Virus record (IMG/VR): IMGVR_UViG_3300008113_011532
From: an uncultured virus (IMG/VR IMGVR_UViG_3300008113_011532)
Lineage: Duplodnaviria > Heunggongvirae > Uroviricota > Caudoviricetes
Length of the DNA: 20,000 bases
Strand: one strand, 5' to 3'
Positions 1,033-18,009 of the stretch are shown one piece after another. Every line of letters starts with the position of its first letter. The stretch's first letter is position 1. Made by a program: the position numbers and the translations under genes. Under the pieces are notes generated by a model. The model was not told the origin of the DNA and ran no database searches. It saw nothing but the letters and a program-made list of their open reading frames with translations.

Positions 1033-1218
1033 ATGACGGTAGAGGTATACACATCGGAGGAATGGGAATCGATCAGCGCGGTCGTAAAAGGCGAGTACGA
1101 ACACCTCGAGAAGGACGCGGTCCTGCTCAGGACAATCGAAGGCGAGGACTGGAACGACTGCATGAGGCAGCACCACGAGCTTATGGGCTGGGAGCCCTAC
1201 AAGCCCTGGACCGATTAG
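1033..1218 (+). CDS. small hypothetical protein (61 aa)
   Basis: Codon usage matches the neighbours; TACATTGC (possible promoter variant) lies 3 nt upstream. Confidence 0.7.
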   Translation: MTVEVYTSEEWESISAVVKGEYEHLEKDAVLLRTIEGEDWNDCMRQHHELMGWEPYKPWTD

Positions 1219-1238
1219 GATAACCGGGTTTTTCTCCT

Positions 1239-1246
1239 TATATTAG
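1239..1246 (+). promoter_or_regulatory. Bacteroidota-type -7 promoter element variant (TATATTAG)
   Basis: Resembles TAnnTTTG; 4 nt before ATG 1251, the same spacing as other copies. Confidence 0.55.
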
Positions 1247-1250
1247 CCTT

Positions 1251-1658
1251 ATGGAACTTAAGGAACTCGCAAGGAGAATAGAATACGTGAACATCAGGGT
1301 TAAGAACATCAACCTCGGAGGCTGCGGCATATTCGCGCTCGAGCTCTACCGAATAATGAGGTTCGAGTTCGGGATGGAGACCGAAATCGTCTTCACCGGC
1401 TGGAGAGCCGGAAGGTCAATCGACTTCGAGCACATCATGCTAAGATACAAAGACACCTGGATAGACAGCAGGGGACTACACAACGACGGCCCTACCAAGA
1501 CCATGGACGTACACGAGCTGACCGAACTGGTCGAGGACAAAAGACGCTGGAACCACGCGTTCCACTTCTACTTCGAGAACCCTTACGGTGTCGTTACAAG
1601 CAACGCAAACCACCTGGTAAGGCAGATGAGGAACTACATCAGCGACAGGGTAAACTGA
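1251..1658 (+). CDS. hypothetical protein, possible Cys-His-Asp (papain/transglutaminase-like) fold
   Basis: 'INLGGCGIFALEL ... EHIML ... WIDSRG'. Confidence 0.6.
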   Translation: MELKELARRIEYVNIRVKNINLGGCGIFALELYRIMRFEFGMETEIVFTGWRAGRSIDFEHIMLRYKDTWIDSRGLHNDGPTKTMDVHELTELVEDKRRWNHAFHFYFENPYGVVTSNANHLVRQMRNYISDRVN

Positions 1659-7582: not shown

Positions 7583-7778
7583 GAAGTTCAGGCAGGCGCT
7601 AGACGAGATATCGGCGGGCCTGCTCACCGTAAAGTACACAGGCGACGCGTCGGACATCGGCAACGAGTTCGGCATACTAATCGGAAAGTTCCTCGACGGC
7701 GAGATGGGCTGGGACAAAGACGCGGTCATATCCGGCGTCAAGCACGGCATCTCACTAACCGACGGTACTCATGGATAG
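7572..7778 (+). CDS. small hypothetical protein (68 aa)
   Basis: Short overlaps with both neighbours; typical codon usage. Confidence 0.7.
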   Translation: MDDKKFRQALDEISAGLLTVKYTGDASDIGNEFGILIGKFLDGEMGWDKDAVISGVKHGISLTDGTHG

Positions 7779-8052
7779 CCTTCAGAAGGAGGCGCTGATG
7801 CGCAGCGCACAACAGATAATCGACGAGAATACAGCATTCGGTGGCAGCATCGTGACCGACGCCACGCCACAAGGGAATCACGAAAAGGCTTTCGACAAAA
7901 TGGGAAAGACCGACATAGTATGGGCGAACGTCTGGATCAATAACGAGGCACAACCCCACGATTATGCCATAACCGGCTGGAGATACCTGAAGAACCTGAA
8001 CGAATTGATTAAAGAGCACCGCGAGGAAAGAATGAAAGAGCTAGGGATATGA
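7771..8052 (+). CDS. hypothetical protein with C-terminal REERMKELGI tag
   Basis: ORF track; ATATGA coupling. Confidence 0.8.
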   Translation: MDSLQKEALMRSAQQIIDENTAFGGSIVTDATPQGNHEKAFDKMGKTDIVWANVWINNEAQPHDYAITGWRYLKNLNELIKEHREERMKELGI

Positions 8053-8390
8053 TGGAAATCATGGAAGTACTTAAAGTAAAGTTTTTAAAGCCTGGTGATT
8101 ATATATCAACTGCCGGCGAAGAAATTATAGAGCGAGATATTGATTTTGAATATTTATTGAAAATAATCAGTGATATAGAAACTCAAAAAGCTGGCTTTGG
8201 CAAAAGCCTACACAAGGAAGCTTTTACAGGAGTAGACTATCTTGGCAATTTAGTTAAGTTTTCTTCTTATGTTATTTGGACAGATAATAATAAAATCTAT
8301 AAGTATAACTTTGATGAAAATTGGATGCCCTTTGATGATGAGTTACTAAGAAGAAATAGAGAAGAACGGCTTAAAGTGCTAGGGATATGA
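8049..8390 (+). CDS. AT-rich hypothetical protein with C-terminal REERLKVLGI tag
   Basis: ORF track; ATATGA at both ends. Confidence 0.8.
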   Translation: MMEIMEVLKVKFLKPGDYISTAGEEIIERDIDFEYLLKIISDIETQKAGFGKSLHKEAFTGVDYLGNLVKFSSYVIWTDNNKIYKYNFDENWMPFDDELLRRNREERLKVLGI

Positions 8391-8626
8391 ACGAGACGAT
8401 GATATCGAAGCACGACATGATTGACGTCGACGGGGTCTGGCTGCTTAAGGCCGGAAGGACATACGAGACATCGGACTGCCCGACAACACACACACCCAAC
8501 CTTGAGATAGGACCAAAACTCGTCATCGTCACCTGCGAGGACGGCAAAGACAGGATACGACAAAAATCGGACTTCAAGCACATTTACGAGCACAGAGAAG
8601 AAAGGCTTAAGGAGATTGGAATATGA
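8387..8626 (+). CDS. hypothetical protein with C-terminal REERLKEIGI tag
   Basis: 'LKAGRTYE...IVTCEDGK' weakly resembles the 2020/2280 family. Confidence 0.8.
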   Translation: MNETMISKHDMIDVDGVWLLKAGRTYETSDCPTTHTPNLEIGPKLVIVTCEDGKDRIRQKSDFKHIYEHREERLKEIGI

Positions 8627-8910
8627 TTAAAAAGAGGGAACAAGGTTCGTATTATCATAGTCTGATGACAAAAGATATGCAAGAGGAATGGCTACAGGAA
8701 TTCAATAGGTCATATCATGTGAAACAGGGAACAAGTTTAGAAACATTTTTTACTTGGTGGCGTCATGACTTCCAAGATTTCATTTCGGGCTCGTTTAACT
8801 GGAATGAGAAGAAGAGAGGAATCGAATGGTGGGAAGACTATGCCAATACCGACGAATCTACAATATTGGCATGGAAGAGAGATGAAACGTTAAAAAATCT
8901 CGGAATATGA
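8623..8910 (+). CDS. Trp-rich hypothetical protein with C-terminal RDETLKNLGI tag
   Basis: ORF track; ATATGA coupling. Confidence 0.8.
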   Translation: MIKKREQGSYYHSLMTKDMQEEWLQEFNRSYHVKQGTSLETFFTWWRHDFQDFISGSFNWNEKKRGIEWWEDYANTDESTILAWKRDETLKNLGI

Positions 8911-8945
8911 GAAAAGAACAAACAATCGATGTACTAGGAATATGA
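8907..8945 (+). CDS. 12-aa tag-only mini-ORF MRKEQTIDVLGI
   Basis: ATG AGA AAA GAA CAA ACA ATC GAT GTA CTA GGA ATA TGA; coupled by ATGA overlaps on both sides. Confidence 0.6.
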   Translation: MRKEQTIDVLGI

Positions 8946-9226
8946 AACACATACTTAACCTCATACGAAACAGCGCCATCTACATCACAATCACGAACCT
9001 GGTGGATGTATACCGAGCAGCGACACACAGGCACGACTGGGTGTACTCGAGCCAAGAAGAGGAAATAGCCTTTGGAAACCAGAGACACCGTATAAAGCTG
9101 AACTTCAAAACAAGATACTGTAATAAGTGCGGCACAAAGGAAAGAAAAATACGCGAGACTTGGGCTCCGTGCTCACTCACAAAAGAAGAGCAAAGAGACA
9201 AGAAACTTAGTGACCTGGGCATATGA
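8942..9226 (+). CDS. putative Zn-binding small protein with C-terminal RDKKLSDLGI tag
   Basis: 'HRHDW ... RYCNKCG'. Confidence 0.8.
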   Translation: MKHILNLIRNSAIYITITNLVDVYRAATHRHDWVYSSQEEEIAFGNQRHRIKLNFKTRYCNKCGTKERKIRETWAPCSLTKEEQRDKKLSDLGI

Positions 9227-13058: not shown

Positions 13059-13501
13059 CAATAGCAATAGTGGCGCTCGCGCTGACGACGCTCATATTCG
13101 GTATCTACATCATACACCTACACTCGAAGCTGTCGGACGCGATAGCGGACAAGAACAACGCAGAGACGCTCACGGCAGCGATGAAGAAAAAGACGACCGT
13201 CGAGGTGTCGCCAGGCGACACGGGACTAATACACAACTACGAACTTCAACACAATGGGAAGGATGGAGAAAAGTATGTATTTAGTGTAGACTTCGAGGTG
13301 AGCATAATCGAGATATCCGAGAAGCGACTCAAGGTGAGCGCCATCGACTACACGACCAACGACGCATGGGCGAAGGACTCTACAAAGAGGCAGGGGATAA
13401 TCAACTTCTTCCAGAACCAATGGGTTAAAAGAGACGAGGTAGAGATAATCTTCGACGACAGGAAGCGCAGGAACGACAAACTAAACGAACTTGGAATATG
13501 A
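13055..13501 (+). CDS. membrane-anchored hypothetical protein with C-terminal RNDKLNELGI tag
   Basis: ATG 13055 in ATGA overlap; hydrophobic N-terminus MTIAIVALALTTLIFGIYII. Confidence 0.8.
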   Translation: MTIAIVALALTTLIFGIYIIHLHSKLSDAIADKNNAETLTAAMKKKTTVEVSPGDTGLIHNYELQHNGKDGEKYVFSVDFEVSIIEISEKRLKVSAIDYTTNDAWAKDSTKRQGIINFFQNQWVKRDEVEIIFDDRKRRNDKLNELGI

Positions 13502-13871
13502 TAGTTCCAACGTTCGAGGAGTTCGCACGCGACATCGGGATGCACCGCAAGGATGCGATAAAGCGCGAAATCCGCGAGATGAAGATAAACATACTCGAGG
13601 GCAAGTACATGTGCACCGACGCTTACTCTATACCCGAAAAGCCGATGATGTGGGAACCCTGCCCCACGGCAGGTCCACGGCGTGCGGGTGCGGCGACAGC
13701 CGGTACGACCACCACTCGATACACGCTGAGAGTGTCATGTCCGTAGTCGAGAGGTGCGGCGGCTCCGCGATGGAATACGAAACCGACGAGCTCAGGAAGA
13801 ACTGGAACGAGTGGACGAAGACCAGAAAGGCCGTGACACACCAGTCGCTAAGGCAACAAGGAAAGTGGTAG
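13498..13871 (+). pseudogene. probable frameshifted Cys-rich gene (junction near 13665-13667)
   Basis: Frame from ATG 13498 looks coding to 'MMWEPCP'; coding-like sequence resumes in another frame 'GRSTACGCGDSRYDHHSIHAES...NWNEW...GKW*'. Confidence 0.55.
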
Positions 13872-13879
13872 AACAAAAA

Positions 13880-13888
13880 TAATATATA
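13880..13888 (+). promoter_or_regulatory. putative phage late promoter TAATATATA
   Basis: Abuts ATG 13888; tagged Met at 13909 (MRYLKFYEDF). Confidence 0.6.
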
Positions 13889-14418
13889 TGGAAAACCAAC
13901 AAGAAAAAATGAGATACCTGAAATTCTACGAAGACTTCTCGGACAACAAGCTGGTCTTCGAAGCAGCGCTTCTCCTGAAACTGGAAGACTCGATGAAAGC
14001 CAAAATACTGGAACTTCTAAAGTCCGAAACAGGAGCAGAGGGACTTTTCCCGCTTCCTGACGAGAAGCTGCACATCACGCTTACGAGCATAAAGAACTGC
14101 AAGGCGAACAAGGACACACTTAAGTCGAGCCTTCCGCAAGTCCCGTCGCCTGAGATCGAGTACCCGGCAATAGAGCTCGGAAGGACCACAATCGCCGAGA
14201 GAGCCGAAACAGGAAAGAAAAGCTTCGTGGTCGAGATAGCGAACCAGGAAGATCTGAAGTCGTTCGTCGACAAGGTTTACGCCGCGATGGGCGTCGAGAA
14301 CCCTGAGCCGGAGAGACACTTCCACATAACGATTGCAAACAACGTCGAGAACAAGAAGGCGCCAGGGATGGCTGACCCGTTCGGCTCGATCGGAGACATA
14401 ACAAAAGAAGATTTCTAA
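13888..14418 (+). CDS. 2H phosphoesterase (2'-5' RNA ligase/phosphodiesterase-like) with N-terminal MRYLKFYEDF tag
   Basis: Two HxT motifs about 83 aa apart: 'LHITL' and 'FHITI'. Alternative start at 13909. Confidence 0.8.
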   Translation: MENQQEKMRYLKFYEDFSDNKLVFEAALLLKLEDSMKAKILELLKSETGAEGLFPLPDEKLHITLTSIKNCKANKDTLKSSLPQVPSPEIEYPAIELGRTTIAERAETGKKSFVVEIANQEDLKSFVDKVYAAMGVENPEPERHFHITIANNVENKKAPGMADPFGSIGDITKEDF

Positions 14419-15095
14419 TGAACGAAGTAAGAATATTTTTCGACCTAGACGGCGTGCTCGCCGACATGGAGGGAGGGCTGAGACAGAACCCAATCATACT
14501 AGAGCTCAGGGCGGTCGTGGACGAGCTGATCGACACGAAGTTCAACGACTACAAAGGCCTCGTGGACGACGACATCAAGACGAAGTTCAAGGCAGAGCTC
14601 GAAGCAAACCCGGAAAGCCCGGTGAAGGAACTCAAGAAAGCGTTCCAGAAGTACACATCGAAGGTGTTCAGCATCGCGGCCAAGCCAGGCTTCTACAGGA
14701 ACCTGCCACTAATGCCGGGCGCACAGGAGATGGTGAAGAAGGCGGCCGAGCTGACCGGCAAGCTACCTAACATACTCTCTGCGCCGGTAGGCGACGAGAA
14801 CGACGCAAACAACCCTTCAGTAATAGAGAAGAGAGAGTGGGTCGAGGAGCACTTCGGCGGAATGGTCGGTGATGTAATCATCACAATCGACAAAGGCAGC
14901 GTCGTTGAGAGCAAGAACGACATCCTTATAGACGACAGGCCAAAGTACGTCGAGAAGTTCACGAGCGCCGGAGGAACCGCGATACTGCACACCGACTACA
15001 GGAAGAGCATCGCAGAGCTGGAGAGCATACTGTCAGGAATGCAGACCAACGAGAGAAGGTTCGTGAAGACATACGAAAGCTTCACCAAGAAATAA
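14418..15095 (+). CDS. HAD-family 5'(3')-deoxyribonucleotidase-like protein
   Basis: Motif I 'FFDLDGVLAD', 'FYRNLPLMPGA', 'ILSAP', 'K..WV..HF', 'ILIDDRPK'. Ends RFVKTYESFTKK. Confidence 0.9.
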   Translation: MNEVRIFFDLDGVLADMEGGLRQNPIILELRAVVDELIDTKFNDYKGLVDDDIKTKFKAELEANPESPVKELKKAFQKYTSKVFSIAAKPGFYRNLPLMPGAQEMVKKAAELTGKLPNILSAPVGDENDANNPSVIEKREWVEEHFGGMVGDVIITIDKGSVVESKNDILIDDRPKYVEKFTSAGGTAILHTDYRKSIAELESILSGMQTNERRFVKTYESFTKK

Positions 15096-15123: not shown

Positions 15124-16767
15124 TTATCTCTCGACGACCCTAACGTACCTCGGAGAGGTGAAGTTAGGGTTCTTGATAGAAAGCGCGTACAGAAGCATGT
15201 TTGACACTATGTCGTCAATCGCGCGATCCTTACCGGAGTCGTGCGAGTCGATGACAGCCAGGGCCCTTATGACCTGCATGGACTGAACCTTCGAGATAAG
15301 CTTTCTCTTTCGGCTCTCGCCCTCGGTGGACCTGCCCCTGGTGTCCGGTATAACCTCGACCGTCATGTCCCTCTCCATCGACTTCACGTCGGCGTTGAGC
15401 GTAGCGAGAAGCTCCTCGAGATCTTCCTCGTCCAGCATTCCAAGCTCGGCGTAGGTGTTTATCGGCTCGTCCTCTACGTAGTCGCGCACCTTTCCGTAAA
15501 GCGGCGACTCCTCTATGAACCTCTTCATCCAAGCCAGAGAAATCTTGCCCTGCCTTGCCCACTTGCCGTCAATCTCTCCGTCGACGTTCACGTTCTGGTT
15601 CGTGTTGGGCGAGTCGATCGAAAGGTTGCGAGGCGTCTCTATAACCTCACCGTCGTGCAACCACGTGGACATCGTCACAATCTTCGTGCCTATTCCCCTG
15701 CCGAGCTCGCCGGAAACCCTAAGCTTCCTGACCTCGAACTCCGGCAGCTCCATATCCTCGACAGCGTTGACGACGATGAACGTGTCCTCGTCCGCCGGTC
15801 CGGACCTCTTCAGCGAGATAGGTATCAGCACACGCTCGTCGAACATCGAGTTCAGCGCGGTGTTGAACTCCAGTATGTCGCCGCAAGAGTCAATCGACGC
15901 AACGACGTCGGCAATCCTTTCACGCTCGACCATGTAGACGTCGGCAGGGTTGAACTTCGACATGTCGACCGAGAAACCGGCCTCCCTGTTTATCTGGTTG
16001 TACTTCGATATGACCTTCGCAGGTATCGAGTCGGTACCCTTTGATGATATGTGGTAAATCACGTACGACCTGCCAGAGGCTATAAGAGGTAGTCTCTGGT
16101 CCTTCAGCCTCACGCTGAACTTGGCAAGCAGGTTGGGAACCTTCGCGAACGTAGCGACCCACGCAGGATCGGAAACGTAGTAGTCTATGATCTCGTCGTC
16201 CATCAAGAAGTTCGGCGAGACGTTGACCTCGCATGTCTCGACGCCAGTCGCCACGAACCTCTTGTTTTGGCCCATCTCCTTCGATATGTACTGCATCACC
16301 TTCTTTATCACATCGGCGTCATTCGGCAGGTCGACGCCATCGGCTATCCTCTTTGCGAGGAAAAGTGCCTGTATTGACTCGTGCTCCCTGATTCTCCTTC
16401 CGGAACCCGACGAACCGAAGTCCGTGGTCTTCTTGAAGTCTGTAAGCTTATAGACGCTGCCGTCGTCCTCGTCCTTGAAGACCTTGGTCGCCCGGCTGTT
16501 CTTCCTGAGGTAGTCGCTGGCCTTCTCTACGTCGAACTTCCCCTCGTCGTCCGTGATGTTACCGATAGCGGTGTCGACGTCAGTCCAATCCCCGTCGACG
16601 TCCGGATCTTTCATCTTCTCGATGTCGACCTTGCGACCGTTGTTTAGCTCTATGTCGTCGTTGGCCCTCAGCTTGGCGACGAGAACATCACCCCTTTTCC
16701 TTGTACCAAGGTCGTCGACCTTCAGGTTGTTCTCGAAGAACCTCGCCCATCCCTTAATCCTGTTCAT
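15124..16767 (-). CDS. 547-aa protein, putative PD-(D/E)xK restriction-endonuclease-like, with N-terminal MNRIKGWARFFE tag
   Basis: 'HESIQALF ... FNPADVYM ... LIPISLK' fits an E...PxD...SLK nuclease-like core. Confidence 0.6.
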   Translation of the reverse strand: MNRIKGWARFFENNLKVDDLGTRKRGDVLVAKLRANDDIELNNGRKVDIEKMKDPDVDGDWTDVDTAIGNITDDEGKFDVEKASDYLRKNSRATKVFKDEDDGSVYKLTDFKKTTDFGSSGSGRRIREHESIQALFLAKRIADGVDLPNDADVIKKVMQYISKEMGQNKRFVATGVETCEVNVSPNFLMDDEIIDYYVSDPAWVATFAKVPNLLAKFSVRLKDQRLPLIASGRSYVIYHISSKGTDSIPAKVISKYNQINREAGFSVDMSKFNPADVYMVERERIADVVASIDSCGDILEFNTALNSMFDERVLIPISLKRSGPADEDTFIVVNAVEDMELPEFEVRKLRVSGELGRGIGTKIVTMSTWLHDGEVIETPRNLSIDSPNTNQNVNVDGEIDGKWARQGKISLAWMKRFIEESPLYGKVRDYVEDEPINTYAELGMLDEEDLEELLATLNADVKSMERDMTVEVIPDTRGRSTEGESRKRKLISKVQSMQVIRALAVIDSHDSGKDRAIDDIVSNMLLYALSIKNPNFTSPRYVRVVER

Positions 16768-16773
16768 AGAACA

Positions 16774-16782
16774 TATATATTA
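16774..16782 (-). promoter_or_regulatory. putative phage late promoter TAATATATA
   Basis: 6 nt before ATG 16767. Confidence 0.6.
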
Positions 16783-16813
16783 CCAAAACGAAACCGCAAA
16801 ACGTTTTTATTGC

Positions 16814-16821
16814 TATATTAG
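16814..16821 (+). promoter_or_regulatory. Bacteroidota-type -7 element variant (TATATTAG)
   Basis: Same octamer as 1239-1246; 4 nt before the first helix of the putative ncRNA. Confidence 0.55.
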
Positions 16822-16825
16822 CTGT

Positions 16826-17070
16826 CGGGCCTGGGAACCCGCCGTCTTTGTGCGAGACGGGTTAAAGCGCACACGGTAAGTCTGGACATCGGAATGCCAG
16901 GCCCGGGGCCAAAGGGCACAGACACAACCCCTCCCGGTAGTGTTGACTTTTTTAATAGGGGTAAGCCCGGCAGGTTTTTTGAAAGGAAAAAACAGATGAG
17001 ACCACCCACTACCCGAGTGGGGAAAGACGGAAACAGCAAGCAAGCGGGTTCGAGCCCCGCGGCCGTCTCT
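16826..17070 (+). ncRNA. putative structured ncRNA with pseudoknots and a 3' tRNA-like T-arm
   Basis: Helix 16826-16834/16897-16905; H-type pseudoknot 16842-16873; hairpins at 16921-16944, 16974-16993 and 17005-17021; T-arm GCGGG-TTCGAGC-CCCGC at 17044-17060 enclosed by AGACGG/CCGTCT. Confidence 0.6.
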
Positions 17071-17082
17071 AAAACTTATAAA

Positions 17083-18009
17083 ATGGGAAGCTTTTACCTT
17101 ACGTGCTCCATATCGCACATGACATTAGATCGCCAAAAGACGAGCGTACAAATCCTAATACCGAAGATGAAGTACGACGGCTGCACCGACATGAAAGAGC
17201 ACAGGAACCTTATCTGCACCAACGACGGCGCGCAGGCGTTCTTCGCACCGTTCGGGTTTCCAATCCACGGCGAATACTACGACTACGGATACATCGACGA
17301 AATCCAGAGAGACAGGAACGTGGAGCAAATCGAGGAGTTCTTCGGCGCGAAGATCGATGACATAATAAAACACATCGGCAGAACACGCGACTGGACACCT
17401 CCAAAGAACGCGGAGCTCTACGAAGAGATTTACATGACGTTCTTCCGCACAGAGGTCCTCGAGTTCCTGCAGAGGGGATGGGACACAGTAAACCTGACCG
17501 ACCCGTATGATTACTCGGGCGACGCCTGGCTGAAGAAGTTCATAGACCTCGCCACAAAAGCGCCGTCCAGAGAGCAGATAGCGGAGGTGAACGAGAAGAG
17601 TTCAAGAGGCGAGGAGCTGACCGAGGACGAGTACGAAATCATGTTCCACTCGGATTACCAAGTCTTCGGATCGAGCAACTGCTACATAAAGTCCTCAATG
17701 GACAGGAACTTCCTGAGGCTGCTCGGAGTGGACTTCGAGGCGCAGCTGAACGACGTTCTTAAGCAGTCGACCTTCCTTACAAGGTTCGGATGGGGGCTAG
17801 ACAGGGTACTACTGCCTTCGGTCTACGGATCGCAGGAAACCAACTTCCAGGAGACCTACCTGCTCAACGACCTCGTGAACGACCTGCTCATCAAGGACAT
17901 GGAAAACGAGTACGACGACTACGACGAGGAAGAAGGCGAAAACTCGCAGAAAGCGAGGATCATTAAGGCTCACAACAGAAACAAGGCGATAAGAGAACTC
18001 GGGGTTTAG
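17083..18009 (+). CDS. hypothetical phage protein (308 aa) with C-terminal RNKAIRELGV tag
   Basis: ATG 17083 after an A-rich leader; 'MGSFYLTCSIS...PIHGEYYDYG'. The upstream extension to 16894 overlaps the structured RNA. Confidence 0.8.
   Translation: MGSFYLTCSISHMTLDRQKTSVQILIPKMKYDGCTDMKEHRNLICTNDGAQAFFAPFGFPIHGEYYDYGYIDEIQRDRNVEQIEEFFGAKIDDIIKHIGRTRDWTPPKNAELYEEIYMTFFRTEVLEFLQRGWDTVNLTDPYDYSGDAWLKKFIDLATKAPSREQIAEVNEKSSRGEELTEDEYEIMFHSDYQVFGSSNCYIKSSMDRNFLRLLGVDFEAQLNDVLKQSTFLTRFGWGLDRVLLPSVYGSQETNFQETYLLNDLVNDLLIKDMENEYDDYDEEEGENSQKARIIKAHNRNKAIRELGV

What the first reader, a model, noticed from the sequence alone, without database searches (positions are those of the whole stretch)
16826..17070. 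Unclassified ~245-nt structured RNA with pseudoknots and a tRNA-like 3' domain
Seen: the largest non-coding gap in the window starts 4 nt after a promoter octamer. It contains a 9-bp helix CGGGCCTGG/CCAGGCCCG (16826-34/16897-905) enclosing an H-type pseudoknot (CCGTCT 16842-47/AGACGG 16855-60; loop TGTGCG 16849-54/CGCACA 16868-73). A GACAC/GTGTT hairpin follows, whose ACCCCT (16927-32) can pair with AGGGGT (16957-62). Further hairpins are GTTTTTT/AAAAAAC and CCCACT/AGTGGG. A canonical T-arm (17044-60) sits inside AGACGG/CCGTCT with no D or anticodon arm. AGACGG and CCGTCT each occur twice, allowing alternative pairings. Inference: a tmRNA-like or Y-RNA-like tRNA mimic, a new phage ncRNA class, or a switchable leader for the 17083 gene.
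Basis: partly seen in the sequence, partly recalled or inferred. Interest (0 to 1): 0.78.

Follow-up and report, generated by a model that had tools for sequence, protein, structure and literature searches.

The report
Folded phage RNA with tRNA-mimic tail
This stretch encodes a real, tightly folded RNA of unknown function that many uncultured lake phages keep among their tRNA genes; here it sits outside any tRNA cluster, followed by a miniature tRNA look-alike that probably serves as its cutting signal.

Summary
Window 16826-17025 (+) is a full-length member of an uncatalogued, roughly 210-nt structured RNA family. I found the family on 37 IMG/VR phage contigs and 2 metagenome contigs.

- **Membership:** a covariance model built without the window's lineage still matches it end to end (76.9 bits, E 1e-21).
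- **Structure:** across 29 sequences, 96.5% of cells pair, and 13 of 38 pairs show compensatory changes.
the H-type pseudoknot, the U/A hairpin, the CCCACT/AGTGGG hairpin and the T-arm.
the 9-bp long-range helix and ACCCCT/AGGGGT.
- **New feature:** a covarying loop-loop contact joins the first and last hairpins.
- **Context:** in 18 of 27 other members a tRNA gene starts 2-4 nt after the RNA. Here a 44-nt acceptor-plus-T-arm minihelix (17025-17068) occupies that place, most likely as an RNase P/Z processing handle. This role is inferred, not shown.
- **Excluded:** tmRNA, Y RNA, a leader for gene 17083, and a protein-coding frame.
- **Catalogues:** Rfam 15 has no match.
- **Closest analogues:** T4 RNAC/RNAD and GOLLD/ROOL, by context only.
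- **Expression:** RNA-library contigs from 3 studies cover only this RNA.

This scan had already noted the family on other DNA (e1-5390630, e1-5365685).

The parts
16814..16821 (+). TATATTAG motif 4 nt before the RNA; possible promoter, not shown
   Evidence: TATATTA has 5 matches in the window against 1.02 expected. Similar TATA-rich motifs lie 0-13 nt before many start codons. In L006 the motif reads TATCTTAG and is 21 nt further from the RNA.
16826..17025 (+). Body of the structured RNA, a full-length member of the uncatalogued family
   Evidence: Model R2, built from 27 IMG/VR sequences without the window lineage, matches 16825-17025 on the + strand: 76.9 bits, E 1.2e-21, model positions 1-212 of 212.
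16826..16841 (+). P1 hairpin CGGG[CCTGGGAA]CCCG (16826-29 / 16838-41)
   Evidence: L006 has CGGA/TCCG, both sides changed. Family P1: 95.2% paired, 3 of 6 pairs with compensatory change.
16842..16873 (+). P2 hairpin (16842-47 / 16855-60) and pseudoknot PK1 (loop 16849-54 with 16868-73)
   Evidence: PK1: 4 of 4 pairs with compensatory change, 98.3% paired. P2: 93.7% paired. L006 has TGTGTG/CACACA.
16880..16902 (+). P3 hairpin GTCTGG[ACATCGGAATG]CCAGGC (16880-85 / 16897-902)
   Evidence: Read from sequence. The same position in other members holds hairpins of unrelated sequence, such as GACTGG/CCAGTC, ATGTC/GACAT and ACTGCA/TGCAGT (rows). Not counted formally.
16903..16937 (+). P4 two-tier hairpin: outer CCGGG/CCCGG (16903-07 / 16933-37), inner AGGG/CCCT (16913-16 / 16929-32)
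   Evidence: Outer helix in the family (A2 columns 142-145 / 177-180): 3 of 4 pairs with compensatory change, 94.0% paired. In that alignment the window row is off by one. The inner helix varies as AGGAG/CTCCT, AGGGAT/ATCTCT, AGAGA/TCTCT, AGAAAA/TTTTCT in the nearest subgroup (sequences; folds).
16921..16944 (+). Probable second pseudoknot: P4 loop GACAC (16921-25) with GTGTT (16940-44)
   Evidence: Other subgroups show other complementary pairs at this place, including AAUCGU/ACGGUU, GGUUC/GAACU, AAUCCU/AGGAUU and AUCGU/ACGAU. The own-versus-cross control is weak: 5.00 against 4.46 bp.
16959..16968 (+). P5 GGG[GTAA]CCC, within the most conserved block of the family
   Evidence: 29 of 29 G-C at all 3 pairs. 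Invariant, so there is no covariation for or against.
16973..16994 (+). P6 hairpin GGTTTTTT[GAAAGG]AAAAAACA
   Evidence: 98.6% paired in the family. The window has a G.A mismatch at the closing pair.
17005..17021 (+). P7 hairpin CCCACT[ACCCG]AGTGGG
   Evidence: 95.4% paired. L007 has CTCACG/CGTGGG and many members CTCACC/GGTGGG.
16832..16835 (+). P1-loop half (TGGG) of a loop-loop contact with the P7 loop CCCG at 17012-15
   Evidence: Most members have GAGA with UCUC; the window lineage has GGG with CCC. 99.1% of cells pair, and column pair 10/270 reads AU:23 GU:4 GC:2.
17025..17068 (+). tRNA-mimic minihelix: AGACGG (17025-30) / CCGTCT (17063-68) enclosing the T-arm GCGGG-TTCGAGC-CCCGC (17044-60); no D or anticodon arm
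   Evidence: This fold is the MFE in the window and L006. It is conserved in the window, L006 and L007, with a G-C to A-T change in the T stem. It stands where 18 of 27 other members have a tRNA gene. ARAGORN and Rfam do not call it a tRNA.
17083..18009 (+). Downstream gene (308 aa, no Pfam or PHROG family); true start at 17083
   Evidence: Homologues in L002 and L006-L009 start with MGSFY at the matching ATG. No family was found.

Best explanation
Positions 16826-17025 (+ strand) encode a compact, stable, non-coding RNA of about 200 nt. It belongs to an uncatalogued family carried by large T4-like phages of fresh water.

Shown:
- The fold has seven hairpins (P1-P7).
- The P2 loop forms an H-type pseudoknot.
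- The P1 loop pairs with the P7 loop, which brings the two ends together.

In most phages the gene is wedged between tRNA genes, so the RNA would be released by the enzymes that mature tRNAs. In this lineage the RNA has left the tRNA array.

Inferred:
- The RNA is transcribed from a start near 16826.
- It keeps a 44-nt acceptor-plus-T-arm mimic (17025-17068) in place of the downstream tRNA.
- RNase P cuts at about 17024/17025 and RNase Z cuts after 17069. This frees the RNA from the mRNA of gene 17083, as MALAT1 is freed from mascRNA.
- The mature RNA acts in trans, probably on tRNA or translation or as a self-assembling particle. Its biochemical role is unknown.
For: **Family membership**
- Model R2, built without the window lineage, hits 16825-17025: 76.9 bits, E 1.2e-21, full model length. 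L006 scores 88.9 bits and L007 71.7 bits.

**Structure**
- 38 pairs in 8 helices: 96.5% paired against 36-51% when partners are slid.
- Covariation score 0.241 against 0.03-0.08; 13 pairs with compensatory change; 0 of 500 shuffles reach the observed value.

**Context**
- 37 of the 39 loci from the IMG/VR scan are real (read).
- ARAGORN finds a tRNA gene starting 2-4 nt after the RNA in 18 of 27 distinct members.
- A T-loop motif lies within 45 nt upstream in 21 of 27.
- One member, L032, ends in a hairpin plus T-run instead, which fixes the same 3' boundary.

**Minihelix**
- It is the MFE fold in the window and L006.
- The T-loop is invariant and the T stem covaries in L007.
- It is the only such T-arm in 20 kb.
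- L010 has a similarly reduced tRNA upstream of its copy.

**Not protein**
- L006 has stops in the window's frame, L007 has a 1-nt deletion, and L012 has only 15 codons between two TAG stops.

**Expression**
- Contigs from 4 RNA libraries of 3 studies cover 16852-17047 or 16864-17002 and nothing of either flanking gene.

**Carriers are T4-like**
- Gp23 capsid genes are present in G001 and G003-G005.

**Precedent**
- RNase P processes tRNA-like structures at non-tRNA 3' ends (PMC4919922, section 5.4, passages read).
Against: - No cleavage or transcript end has been mapped.
- The RNA contig of run X17 runs 22 nt into the minihelix, to 17047. At least some molecules therefore extend past the proposed RNase P site. 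These are assembled contigs, which cannot show ends.
- The acceptor stem has 6 bp, not 7. Two unpaired bases separate it from the T stem in the window, and no CCA follows.
- The minihelix is known from only 3 sequences.
- Gene 17083 has its own TTATAAA motif right before the ATG, so co-transcription is not required.
- The thermodynamic z-score is only -0.24.
- The function of the mature RNA is a guess.
Confidence: 0.6

Rival explanations
1. The RNA body is the same real family member, but the minihelix is only the decaying remnant of a tRNA gene that once followed it. It has no role in processing, and the 3' end forms some other way.
For: - It lacks D and anticodon arms and is not called a tRNA.
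- It has a 6-bp acceptor stem with a 2-nt bulge and no CCA.
- The X17 RNA contig crosses the proposed cut site.
- L010 also carries a decayed tRNA.
Against: - The T-loop is invariant, and stem pairing is kept through a compensatory change across three relatives.
- Over the same comparison the 13-nt linker changes freely.
- What survives is exactly acceptor plus T-arm, the part that RNase P reads (recalled knowledge of RNase P model substrates).
Confidence: 0.25
2. The whole 245 nt, minihelix included, is one mature RNA with a tRNA-like 3' domain. This is the reader's tmRNA-like or Y-RNA-like tRNA mimic, comparable to T4 RNAC, which ends in a T-arm.
For: - T4 rnaC ends in CCGGG-TTCGAAT-CCCGG plus 11 nt and gives a weak tRNA-Sec-like Rfam hit of 17.5 bits.
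- The X17 contig reaches 17047.
Against: - In 18 of 27 members the element at this place is a full decoding tRNA that must be cut off.
- One member ends in a terminator-like hairpin with no tRNA-like part.
- ARAGORN finds no tmRNA, and there is no Rfam tmRNA or Y RNA hit at E up to 10.
- The tRNA-like part is closed locally, not by the RNA's 5' and 3' ends.
Confidence: 0.08
3. It is a cis-acting leader, riboswitch or switch that controls gene 17083 through alternative pairings of the duplicated AGACGG and CCGTCT.
For: - The RNA lies upstream of this gene in all 3 members of the window lineage.
- AGACGG and CCGTCT each occur twice, in swapped order.
Against: - Gene homologues in L002 (82% aa), L008 and L009 have no such element upstream.
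- The 27 other members precede tRNAs or a terminator-like hairpin, not this gene.
- L006 changes one copy to TCGTCT.
- RNA-library contigs cover the RNA but not the gene.
Confidence: 0.04
4. It is protein-coding: an N-terminal extension of gene 17083 starting at the ATG at 16894, or a small ORF.
For: The frame from 16894 is open into the gene in the window.
Against: - L006 has stops in that frame after 1-nt indels, and L007 has a 1-nt deletion before the ATG.
- Family members carry indels that are not multiples of three, and stops.
- Homologues start at MGSFY.
Confidence: 0.01
5. The T-arm plus 3' acceptor strand is an attP core copied from a host tRNA gene, used for integration.
For: Phage attachment sites often hold the 3' end of a tRNA gene (recalled knowledge).
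Against: - No integrase family was found among the 12 ORFs scanned against Pfam or the 17 scanned against PHROGs.
- The carriers are T4-like.
- A matching 5' acceptor strand is present and conserved.
- The T-arm plus 3' strand has no exact match in IMG/VR.
Confidence: 0.02

Closest known systems
Phage T4 small stable RNAs RNAC (species 1, 139 nt) and RNAD (species 2, 119 nt)
   Same: - They are encoded in the tRNA region of a Gp23-type phage, directly beside tRNA-Arg.
[quoted passage not shown]
- rnaC ends in a T-arm.
- Neither is in Rfam.
   Different: - There is no detectable similarity. The best model R1 score on the T4 region is 6.6 bits and lies elsewhere.
- Local alignment is no better than shuffles: 94 and 127 of 200 shuffles score as high.
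- They are about half the size.
GOLLD and ROOL RNAs
   Same: They are phage and prophage RNAs of unknown function, often near tRNA islands, with multiple pseudoknots; ROOL is reported as abundant as 16S rRNA (PMC12286853, passages read).
   Different: - They are about 580-800 nt, against 200 nt here.
- There is no Rfam hit to either family.
- Assembly into cages has not been tested for this RNA.
MALAT1/mascRNA and MEN-beta tRNA-like 3'-end processing
   Same: A tRNA-like structure directly after a non-coding RNA is cut by RNase P and RNase Z, which makes the 3' end of the upstream RNA (PMC4919922, section 5.4). The layout here is the same.
   Different: - That case involves eukaryotic nuclear RNAs.
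- mascRNA keeps a cloverleaf (recalled, not from a call); here only the acceptor and T-arm remain.
- Cleavage is not shown here.
tmRNA
   Same: It has a T-arm, an acceptor-like stem and pseudoknots.
   Different: - ARAGORN finds none and Rfam has no match.
- The tRNA-like part is not formed by the 5' and 3' ends.
- There is no conserved tag frame.
Bacterial Y RNA (YrlA)
   Same: It is a non-coding RNA with a tRNA-like module, also seen in phages (recalled).
   Different: - There is no Rfam hit at E up to 10.
- In most members the tRNA beside the RNA is a separate decoding tRNA.

Membership tests
   R2: 76.9 bits, E 1.2e-21, model positions 1-212 of 212, window 16825-17025 +.
   All are present in the window. 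The loop-loop contact is kept with other letters, GGG/CCC in place of GAGA/UCUC.
   There are 0 tRNA genes in the 20-kb window. A 44-nt minihelix stands in that place. This is a feature of context (18 of 27 members), not of the RNA itself.
tRNA (RF00005) | Cloverleaf with D arm and anticodon arm | tested here: not met
   ARAGORN finds none. There is no Rfam tRNA hit at E up to 10 in 16700-17200. Only 13 nt lie between the acceptor strand and the T stem.
tRNA (RF00005) | T-arm with a TTCRANN loop on a 5-bp stem, next to an acceptor stem | tested here: met
   The T-arm is at 17044-60 and the acceptor stem is 6 bp at 17025-30 / 17063-68, with a 2-nt bulge.
tmRNA | tRNA-like domain made by the 5' and 3' ends, plus a tag reading frame | tested here: not met
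   ARAGORN finds no tmRNA, Rfam has none, and no frame is conserved.
Y RNA / YrlA | Match to the family model; Ro-binding stem | tested here: not met
   No Rfam hit at E up to 10. Ro binding is not testable with these tools.
GOLLD / ROOL | Match to the family models | tested here: not met
   No hits in the window, L006, L007, L010 or L037.
T4 RNAC / RNAD | Sequence or structure similarity | tested here: not met
   Context is shared.
Riboswitch or cis leader of gene 17083 | Conserved association with the regulated gene | tested here: not met
   3 of the 5 homologous gene loci fetched with upstream sequence (L002, L008, L009) lack it. The 27 other members lie elsewhere.
RNase P / RNase Z substrate of the tRNA-like (mascRNA) type | Cleavage at the 5' end of the tRNA-like acceptor stem | not testable with these tools
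   Only the substrate-like shape is shown. RNA contigs cannot show ends.

The most novel reading that the evidence does not exclude
The 200-nt RNA is a new class of 'ornate' phage RNA that acts on the host's tRNA or translation machinery. It could be an RNA-only assembly that uses its covarying loop-loop contact between molecules, as ROOL and GOLLD cages use theirs, or it could be a ribozyme. Phages that moved it out of the tRNA array evolved a 44-nt tRNA mimic solely to recruit RNase P and RNase Z. That would be the first bacterial-virus counterpart of MALAT1/mascRNA 3'-end formation.
Probability: 0.25. Interest if true: 0.85.

Novelty: new variant of a known kind. Interest (0 to 1): 0.7.

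Why it matters
Phage tRNA islands repeatedly hold highly structured RNAs whose purpose is unknown: T4 RNAC and RNAD for fifty years, then GOLLD and ROOL. This family adds several things.

- It is small enough (about 200 nt) for structure work.
- It has a well-supported fold and is widespread in lake phages.
- It is visible in metatranscriptomes.

The window's copy is the informative one. It has left the tRNA array, yet it keeps a stripped-down tRNA mimic at its 3' side. That separates the RNA's own function from tRNA production, and it points to tRNA-processing enzymes as the way its ends are made. That idea can be tested directly with RNase P in vitro.

Tried and rejected
**Searches that found nothing**
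- Rfam at gathering threshold on the window gave 0 hits.
- Rfam at E up to 10 on 16700-17200 gave only chance hits below 16 bits.
- Rfam gave only tRNAs on L010, L006 and L007 and on L037.
- ARAGORN found 0 genes in the window.
- No whole genome is held for this window.
- GenBank phages gave no match by blastn with the region, megablast with 6 kb, blastn with a typical member, or tblastn with the 308-aa protein.
- Exact T-arm plus acceptor pattern in IMG/VR: 0 matches. CCCCTCCCGGTAGTGTTGAC: 0 matches.

**Searches whose hits I rejected**
- The genome contigs pattern scan gave 8 loci. I read all of them as chance, because they show no similarity downstream of the pattern.
- L011, L034 and L041 were rejected as chance matches in coding sequence.

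**Relatives without the RNA**
- The protein relatives G001 and G002 (90-91% complete) hold no copy at E up to 0.01.

**Ideas considered by eye and dropped**
- Hammerhead reading of CAGATGAG...GAAAG: U4 is not conserved, stem I is absent, and Rfam has no hit.
- RNase P RNA reading: the conserved regions are absent and Rfam has no hit.
- T4 rnaD shares short strings such as AATGAG, GATGCCC and CAGCAG, but alignment is no better than shuffles.

**My own errors**
- In (helix 2; helix 3) I placed GTGTT at the wrong coordinates. Those rows say nothing about that pairing.
- My alternative P4 strings also scored poorly on A2, because MAFFT does not align the variable middle well.
- Sub-alignment A4 had register shifts and was not counted.

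**Weak control**
- Own-versus-cross control for the second pseudoknot: 5.00 against 4.46 bp.

**Literature and earlier notes**
- Four literature searches returned no description of this family. Two searches failed on term syntax, and the T4 genome review PMC150520 is not held.
- Earlier-findings look-ups with the window's own sequence and with L006 returned nothing.

**RNA runs**
- Parts of the stretch without RNA-contig cover are not evidence of absence.
Full report
**1. What is in the window**

The flagged stretch lies between two divergent genes.
- Upstream is a 547-aa gene on the minus strand (15124-16767), which matches phrog_1462 of unknown function.
- Downstream is a 308-aa gene on the plus strand.
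- The downstream gene truly starts at 17083, because homologues in five other loci begin with MGSFY at the matching ATG.

No known family explains the stretch.
- Rfam 15 has no match at gathering threshold. At E up to 10 it has no match above 16 bits.
- ARAGORN finds no tRNA or tmRNA anywhere in the 20 kb.

Folding energy is not special. The MFE is -84.6 kcal/mol against -83.5 +/- 4.6 for shuffles, z = -0.24. Any case for an RNA therefore has to come from comparison with relatives.

**2. Relatives**

No whole genome is held for this window.

The nearest protein relatives are two large IMG/VR contigs (L001 at 249 kb, L002 at 344 kb).
- They carry the flanking genes at 67% and 82% identity.
- They do not carry the element, either at those loci or anywhere else in the contigs.

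A metagenome scan with the 308-aa protein gave four loci.
- L006 (92% aa identity) has the whole element.
- L007 (87%) has its 3' half, cut by the contig end.
- L008 and L009 (47% and 58%) lack it.

These close relatives already show paired changes.
- TGTGCG/CGCACA becomes TGTGTG/CACACA.
- CCCACT/AGTGGG becomes CTCACG/CGTGGG.
- The T stem GCGGG/CCCGC becomes ACGGG/CCCGT.

Exact-pattern scans of IMG/VR then opened up the family.
- A conserved hairpin string found L010. There the homologous RNA lies directly upstream of tRNA-Asp in a tRNA array.
- A pattern from the 5' part of the conserved block found 9 loci. One was a chance match (L011) and one was the L010 contig again (L014).
- A pattern from the 3' part found 39 loci. 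I read 37 as real and 2 (L034, L041) as chance matches in coding sequence.
- These loci hold 27 distinct RNA sequences of 205-271 nt.

The same 5'-block pattern gave only chance-looking hits in 185,579 species' genomes. Blast against GenBank phages found nothing.

**3. Is it a structured RNA?**

A MAFFT alignment of 29 sequences (the window, L006 and the 27 others) was scored for 38 pairs in 8 helices.

| Measure | This structure | Control |
|---|---|---|
| Cells forming a standard pair | 96.5% | 36-51% with partners slid 1-3 columns |
| Covariation score | 0.241 | 0.03-0.08 with partners slid |
| Pairs with change on both sides | 13 of 38 | - |
| Shuffles reaching the observed score | 0 of 500 | - |

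The best-supported elements are these:
- The pseudoknot between the P2 loop and the strand downstream: 4 of 4 pairs compensatory.
- P1: 3 of 6 pairs compensatory.
- Outer P4: 3 of 4 pairs compensatory.

RNAalifold also proposed a contact between the P1 loop and the P7 loop.
- Most members have GAGA pairing with UCUC.
- The window lineage has GGG pairing with CCC.
- 99.1% of cells pair.

The middle of the molecule (P3, inner P4) varies too much for MAFFT. Hairpins of unrelated sequence stand at the same places in every member (rows; sequences; folds).

**4. Is the window's copy a member?**

To avoid circularity I built model R2 from the 27 IMG/VR sequences only.

| Sequence | Match | Score |
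|---|---|---|
| Window | 16825-17025 +, model positions 1-212 of 212 | 76.9 bits, E 1.2e-21 |
| L006 | full length | 88.9 bits |
| L007 | 3' half | 71.7 bits |

The strand and boundaries are therefore fixed: the RNA body is 16826-17025 on the plus strand.

**5.

Confirmed:
- The H-type pseudoknot.
- The U/A hairpin (P6).
- CCCACT/AGTGGG (P7).
- The T-arm.

Not conserved:
- *The 9-bp helix CGGGCCTGG/CCAGGCCCG.* L006 has an A.C mismatch in it. The two changes in L006 instead preserve the local hairpin CGGA/TCCG. Family-wide only 45.7% of cells pair. Its 3' strand is taken up by P3 and outer P4.
- *ACCCCT/AGGGGT.* It scores about 52%. CCCT fits better with AGGG at 16913-16, which covaries in the nearest subgroup.

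Unsettled:
- *GACAC/GTGTT (16921-25 / 16940-44).* It is plausible as a second pseudoknot between the P4 loop and the strand before TGAC. Other subgroups have other complementary strings at that place. My control was weak, at 5.00 against 4.46 bp.
- My first two tests of this pairing used wrong coordinates and must be ignored (helix 2, helix 3).

**6. Not a protein**

- The frame from 16894 is open in the window.
- In L006 the same frame has stops, after a 1-nt insertion and a 1-nt deletion.
- L007 has a 1-nt deletion before the ATG.
- L012 has 15 codons between two TAG stops.
- Other members carry stops and indels that are not multiples of three.

**7. Context and the minihelix**

- In 18 of 27 members ARAGORN places a tRNA gene 2-4 nt after the end of the RNA model. 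Identities vary: Asp, Arg, Ser, Ala, Gly, Met, Leu, His.
- In 21 of 27 a T-loop motif lies within 45 nt upstream, so the RNA starts 2-3 nt after a tRNA's 3' end. In L037 Rfam scores that upstream element as a tRNA at 36.8 bits.
- One member (L032) has a hairpin plus T-run instead of the downstream tRNA, at the same boundary.

The window has no tRNA gene at all. At the place of the downstream tRNA it has AGACGG (17025-30), then 13 nt, then the T-arm (17044-60), then GG, then CCGTCT (17063-68).
- This fold is the MFE in the window and in L006.
- The T-loop is invariant and the stems are kept in the window, L006 and L007, while the 13-nt linker varies.
- Such a T-arm occurs once in the window, against 0.047 expected.
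- L010 has a similarly reduced tRNA (acceptor plus T-arm) on the other side of its copy.

**8. Mechanism**

Shown:
- The fold.
- Family membership.
- The tRNA-flanked context.

Inferred:
- In tRNA arrays the RNA is released by tRNA-maturing enzymes.
- In this lineage the minihelix keeps that route open. RNase P would cut at about 17024/25 and RNase Z after the discriminator.
- This would separate the RNA from the mRNA of gene 17083.

RNase P is known to process non-tRNA substrates at tRNA-like structures. MALAT1/mascRNA is the textbook case (PMC4919922, section 5.4; passages read).

Points against:
- The acceptor stem has 6 bp with a 2-nt bulge, and no CCA follows.
- One RNA contig runs to 17047, past the proposed cut.

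The promoter claim is open.
- TATATTA is enriched, 5 matches against 1.02 expected, and similar motifs sit just before many start codons.
- In L006 the motif is changed and lies 21 nt further away.

**9. Expression and habitat**

- The stretch is held by DNA runs of 16 studies, mostly labelled lake or freshwater metagenomes.
- Four RNA libraries of 3 studies each give one contig. These cover 16852-17047 or 16864-17002, at 95-99% identity.
- They cover nothing of either flanking gene.
- Contigs cannot show ends or levels, and DNA can contaminate RNA libraries. This is a hint of a stable RNA, not proof.

**10. Who carries it**

Gp23-type capsid genes are present in G001 (the window's protein relative) and in three carriers, G003-G005. 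G003 and G004 hold one copy of the RNA each.

**11. Comparison with what is known**

- *T4 RNAC and RNAD.* They lie beside tRNA-Arg in the T4 tRNA region. Two papers say their roles are unknown (passages). They share context with this family but no detectable similarity, and they are not in Rfam.
- *GOLLD and ROOL.* They are larger phage RNAs 'often near tRNA islands', with pseudoknots and unknown function, and they form cages (PMC12286853, passages). Their Rfam models do not match here.
- *tmRNA and Y RNA.* Both fail their membership tests.

Four literature searches found no description of this family. I cannot exclude one in papers that are not held.

This scan's earlier notes e1-5390630 and e1-5365685 describe the same family on other DNA: between tRNA genes, uncatalogued, with T4 rnaC/rnaD as nearest. 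I saw them only after reaching the same reading.

**12. Verdict**

This is a real, new RNA family of unknown function. The window holds an unusual member that has left the tRNA array and carries a minimal tRNA mimic at its 3' side.

Noticed in passing
L037 about 1130-1358 (- strand); also L056 and L063: A second conserved spacer of about 230 nt lies between tRNA-like elements. It contains ...GACTACTAAGGTCGGTAAAACCCATCACGAAGGGGAGCAAGACAG... and looks like another uncatalogued RNA.
   Followed up: no
L012 about 1206-1380, L013, L015/L017 (after tRNA-Ala): A conserved element of about 95 nt (GGTGGGAGTAATTAGCCCAACC...TTCTTGATT) is followed by an odd tRNA. ARAGORN calls it tRNA-Pyl (cta) in L015, L017 and L057, so it may be a suppressor or a tRNA-like RNA.
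   Followed up: no
L037, L028, L046, L056, L063 around the RNA: tRNA-like units with the same acceptor stem (AGTCAGG/CCTGACT) recur as boundaries around different cargo. The cargo includes a 37-codon ORF and a bare acceptor hairpin without a T-arm in L037. ARAGORN misses most of these units, while Rfam scores one as a tRNA at 36.8 bits.
   Followed up: partly
window 16842-60 and 17025-68: The P2 stem (CCGTCT/AGACGG) and the minihelix acceptor stem (AGACGG/CCGTCT) use the same two hexamers in swapped order. L006 changes one copy to TCGTCT. I have no explanation: it could be chance, shared origin or alternative pairing in the precursor.
   Followed up: partly
window, before the starts at 1251, 3404, 4162, 5854, 7109, 9595, 11214, 13888, 16767(-), 17083, 18497(-), 19267: TATA-rich motifs, including an exact TATAAATA before 11214, lie 0-13 nt before start codons, and no Shine-Dalgarno sequence is visible. 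They could be T4-type late promoters with near-leaderless mRNAs or an AT-rich initiation signal.
   Followed up: no
window 13888-14418 and 14418-15095: A LigT-like 2H phosphoesterase sits next to an NT5C/HAD protein that has a weak polynucleotide-kinase PHROG hit. This may be an RNA-repair pair, about 1.7 kb from the RNA.
   Followed up: no
window 7771-8910, 8942-9226 and 13498-13746: A run of small genes has start codons that overlap or follow very similar upstream ends (...CTAGGGATATG...TTGGAATATG). This suggests a tandem paralogous family.
   Followed up: no
L002 3500-3812 (- strand): The 344-kb relative encodes a DnaK/Hsp70-like protein next to its copy of the 308-aa gene. This is read from the DNA sequence by eye only.
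   Followed up: no
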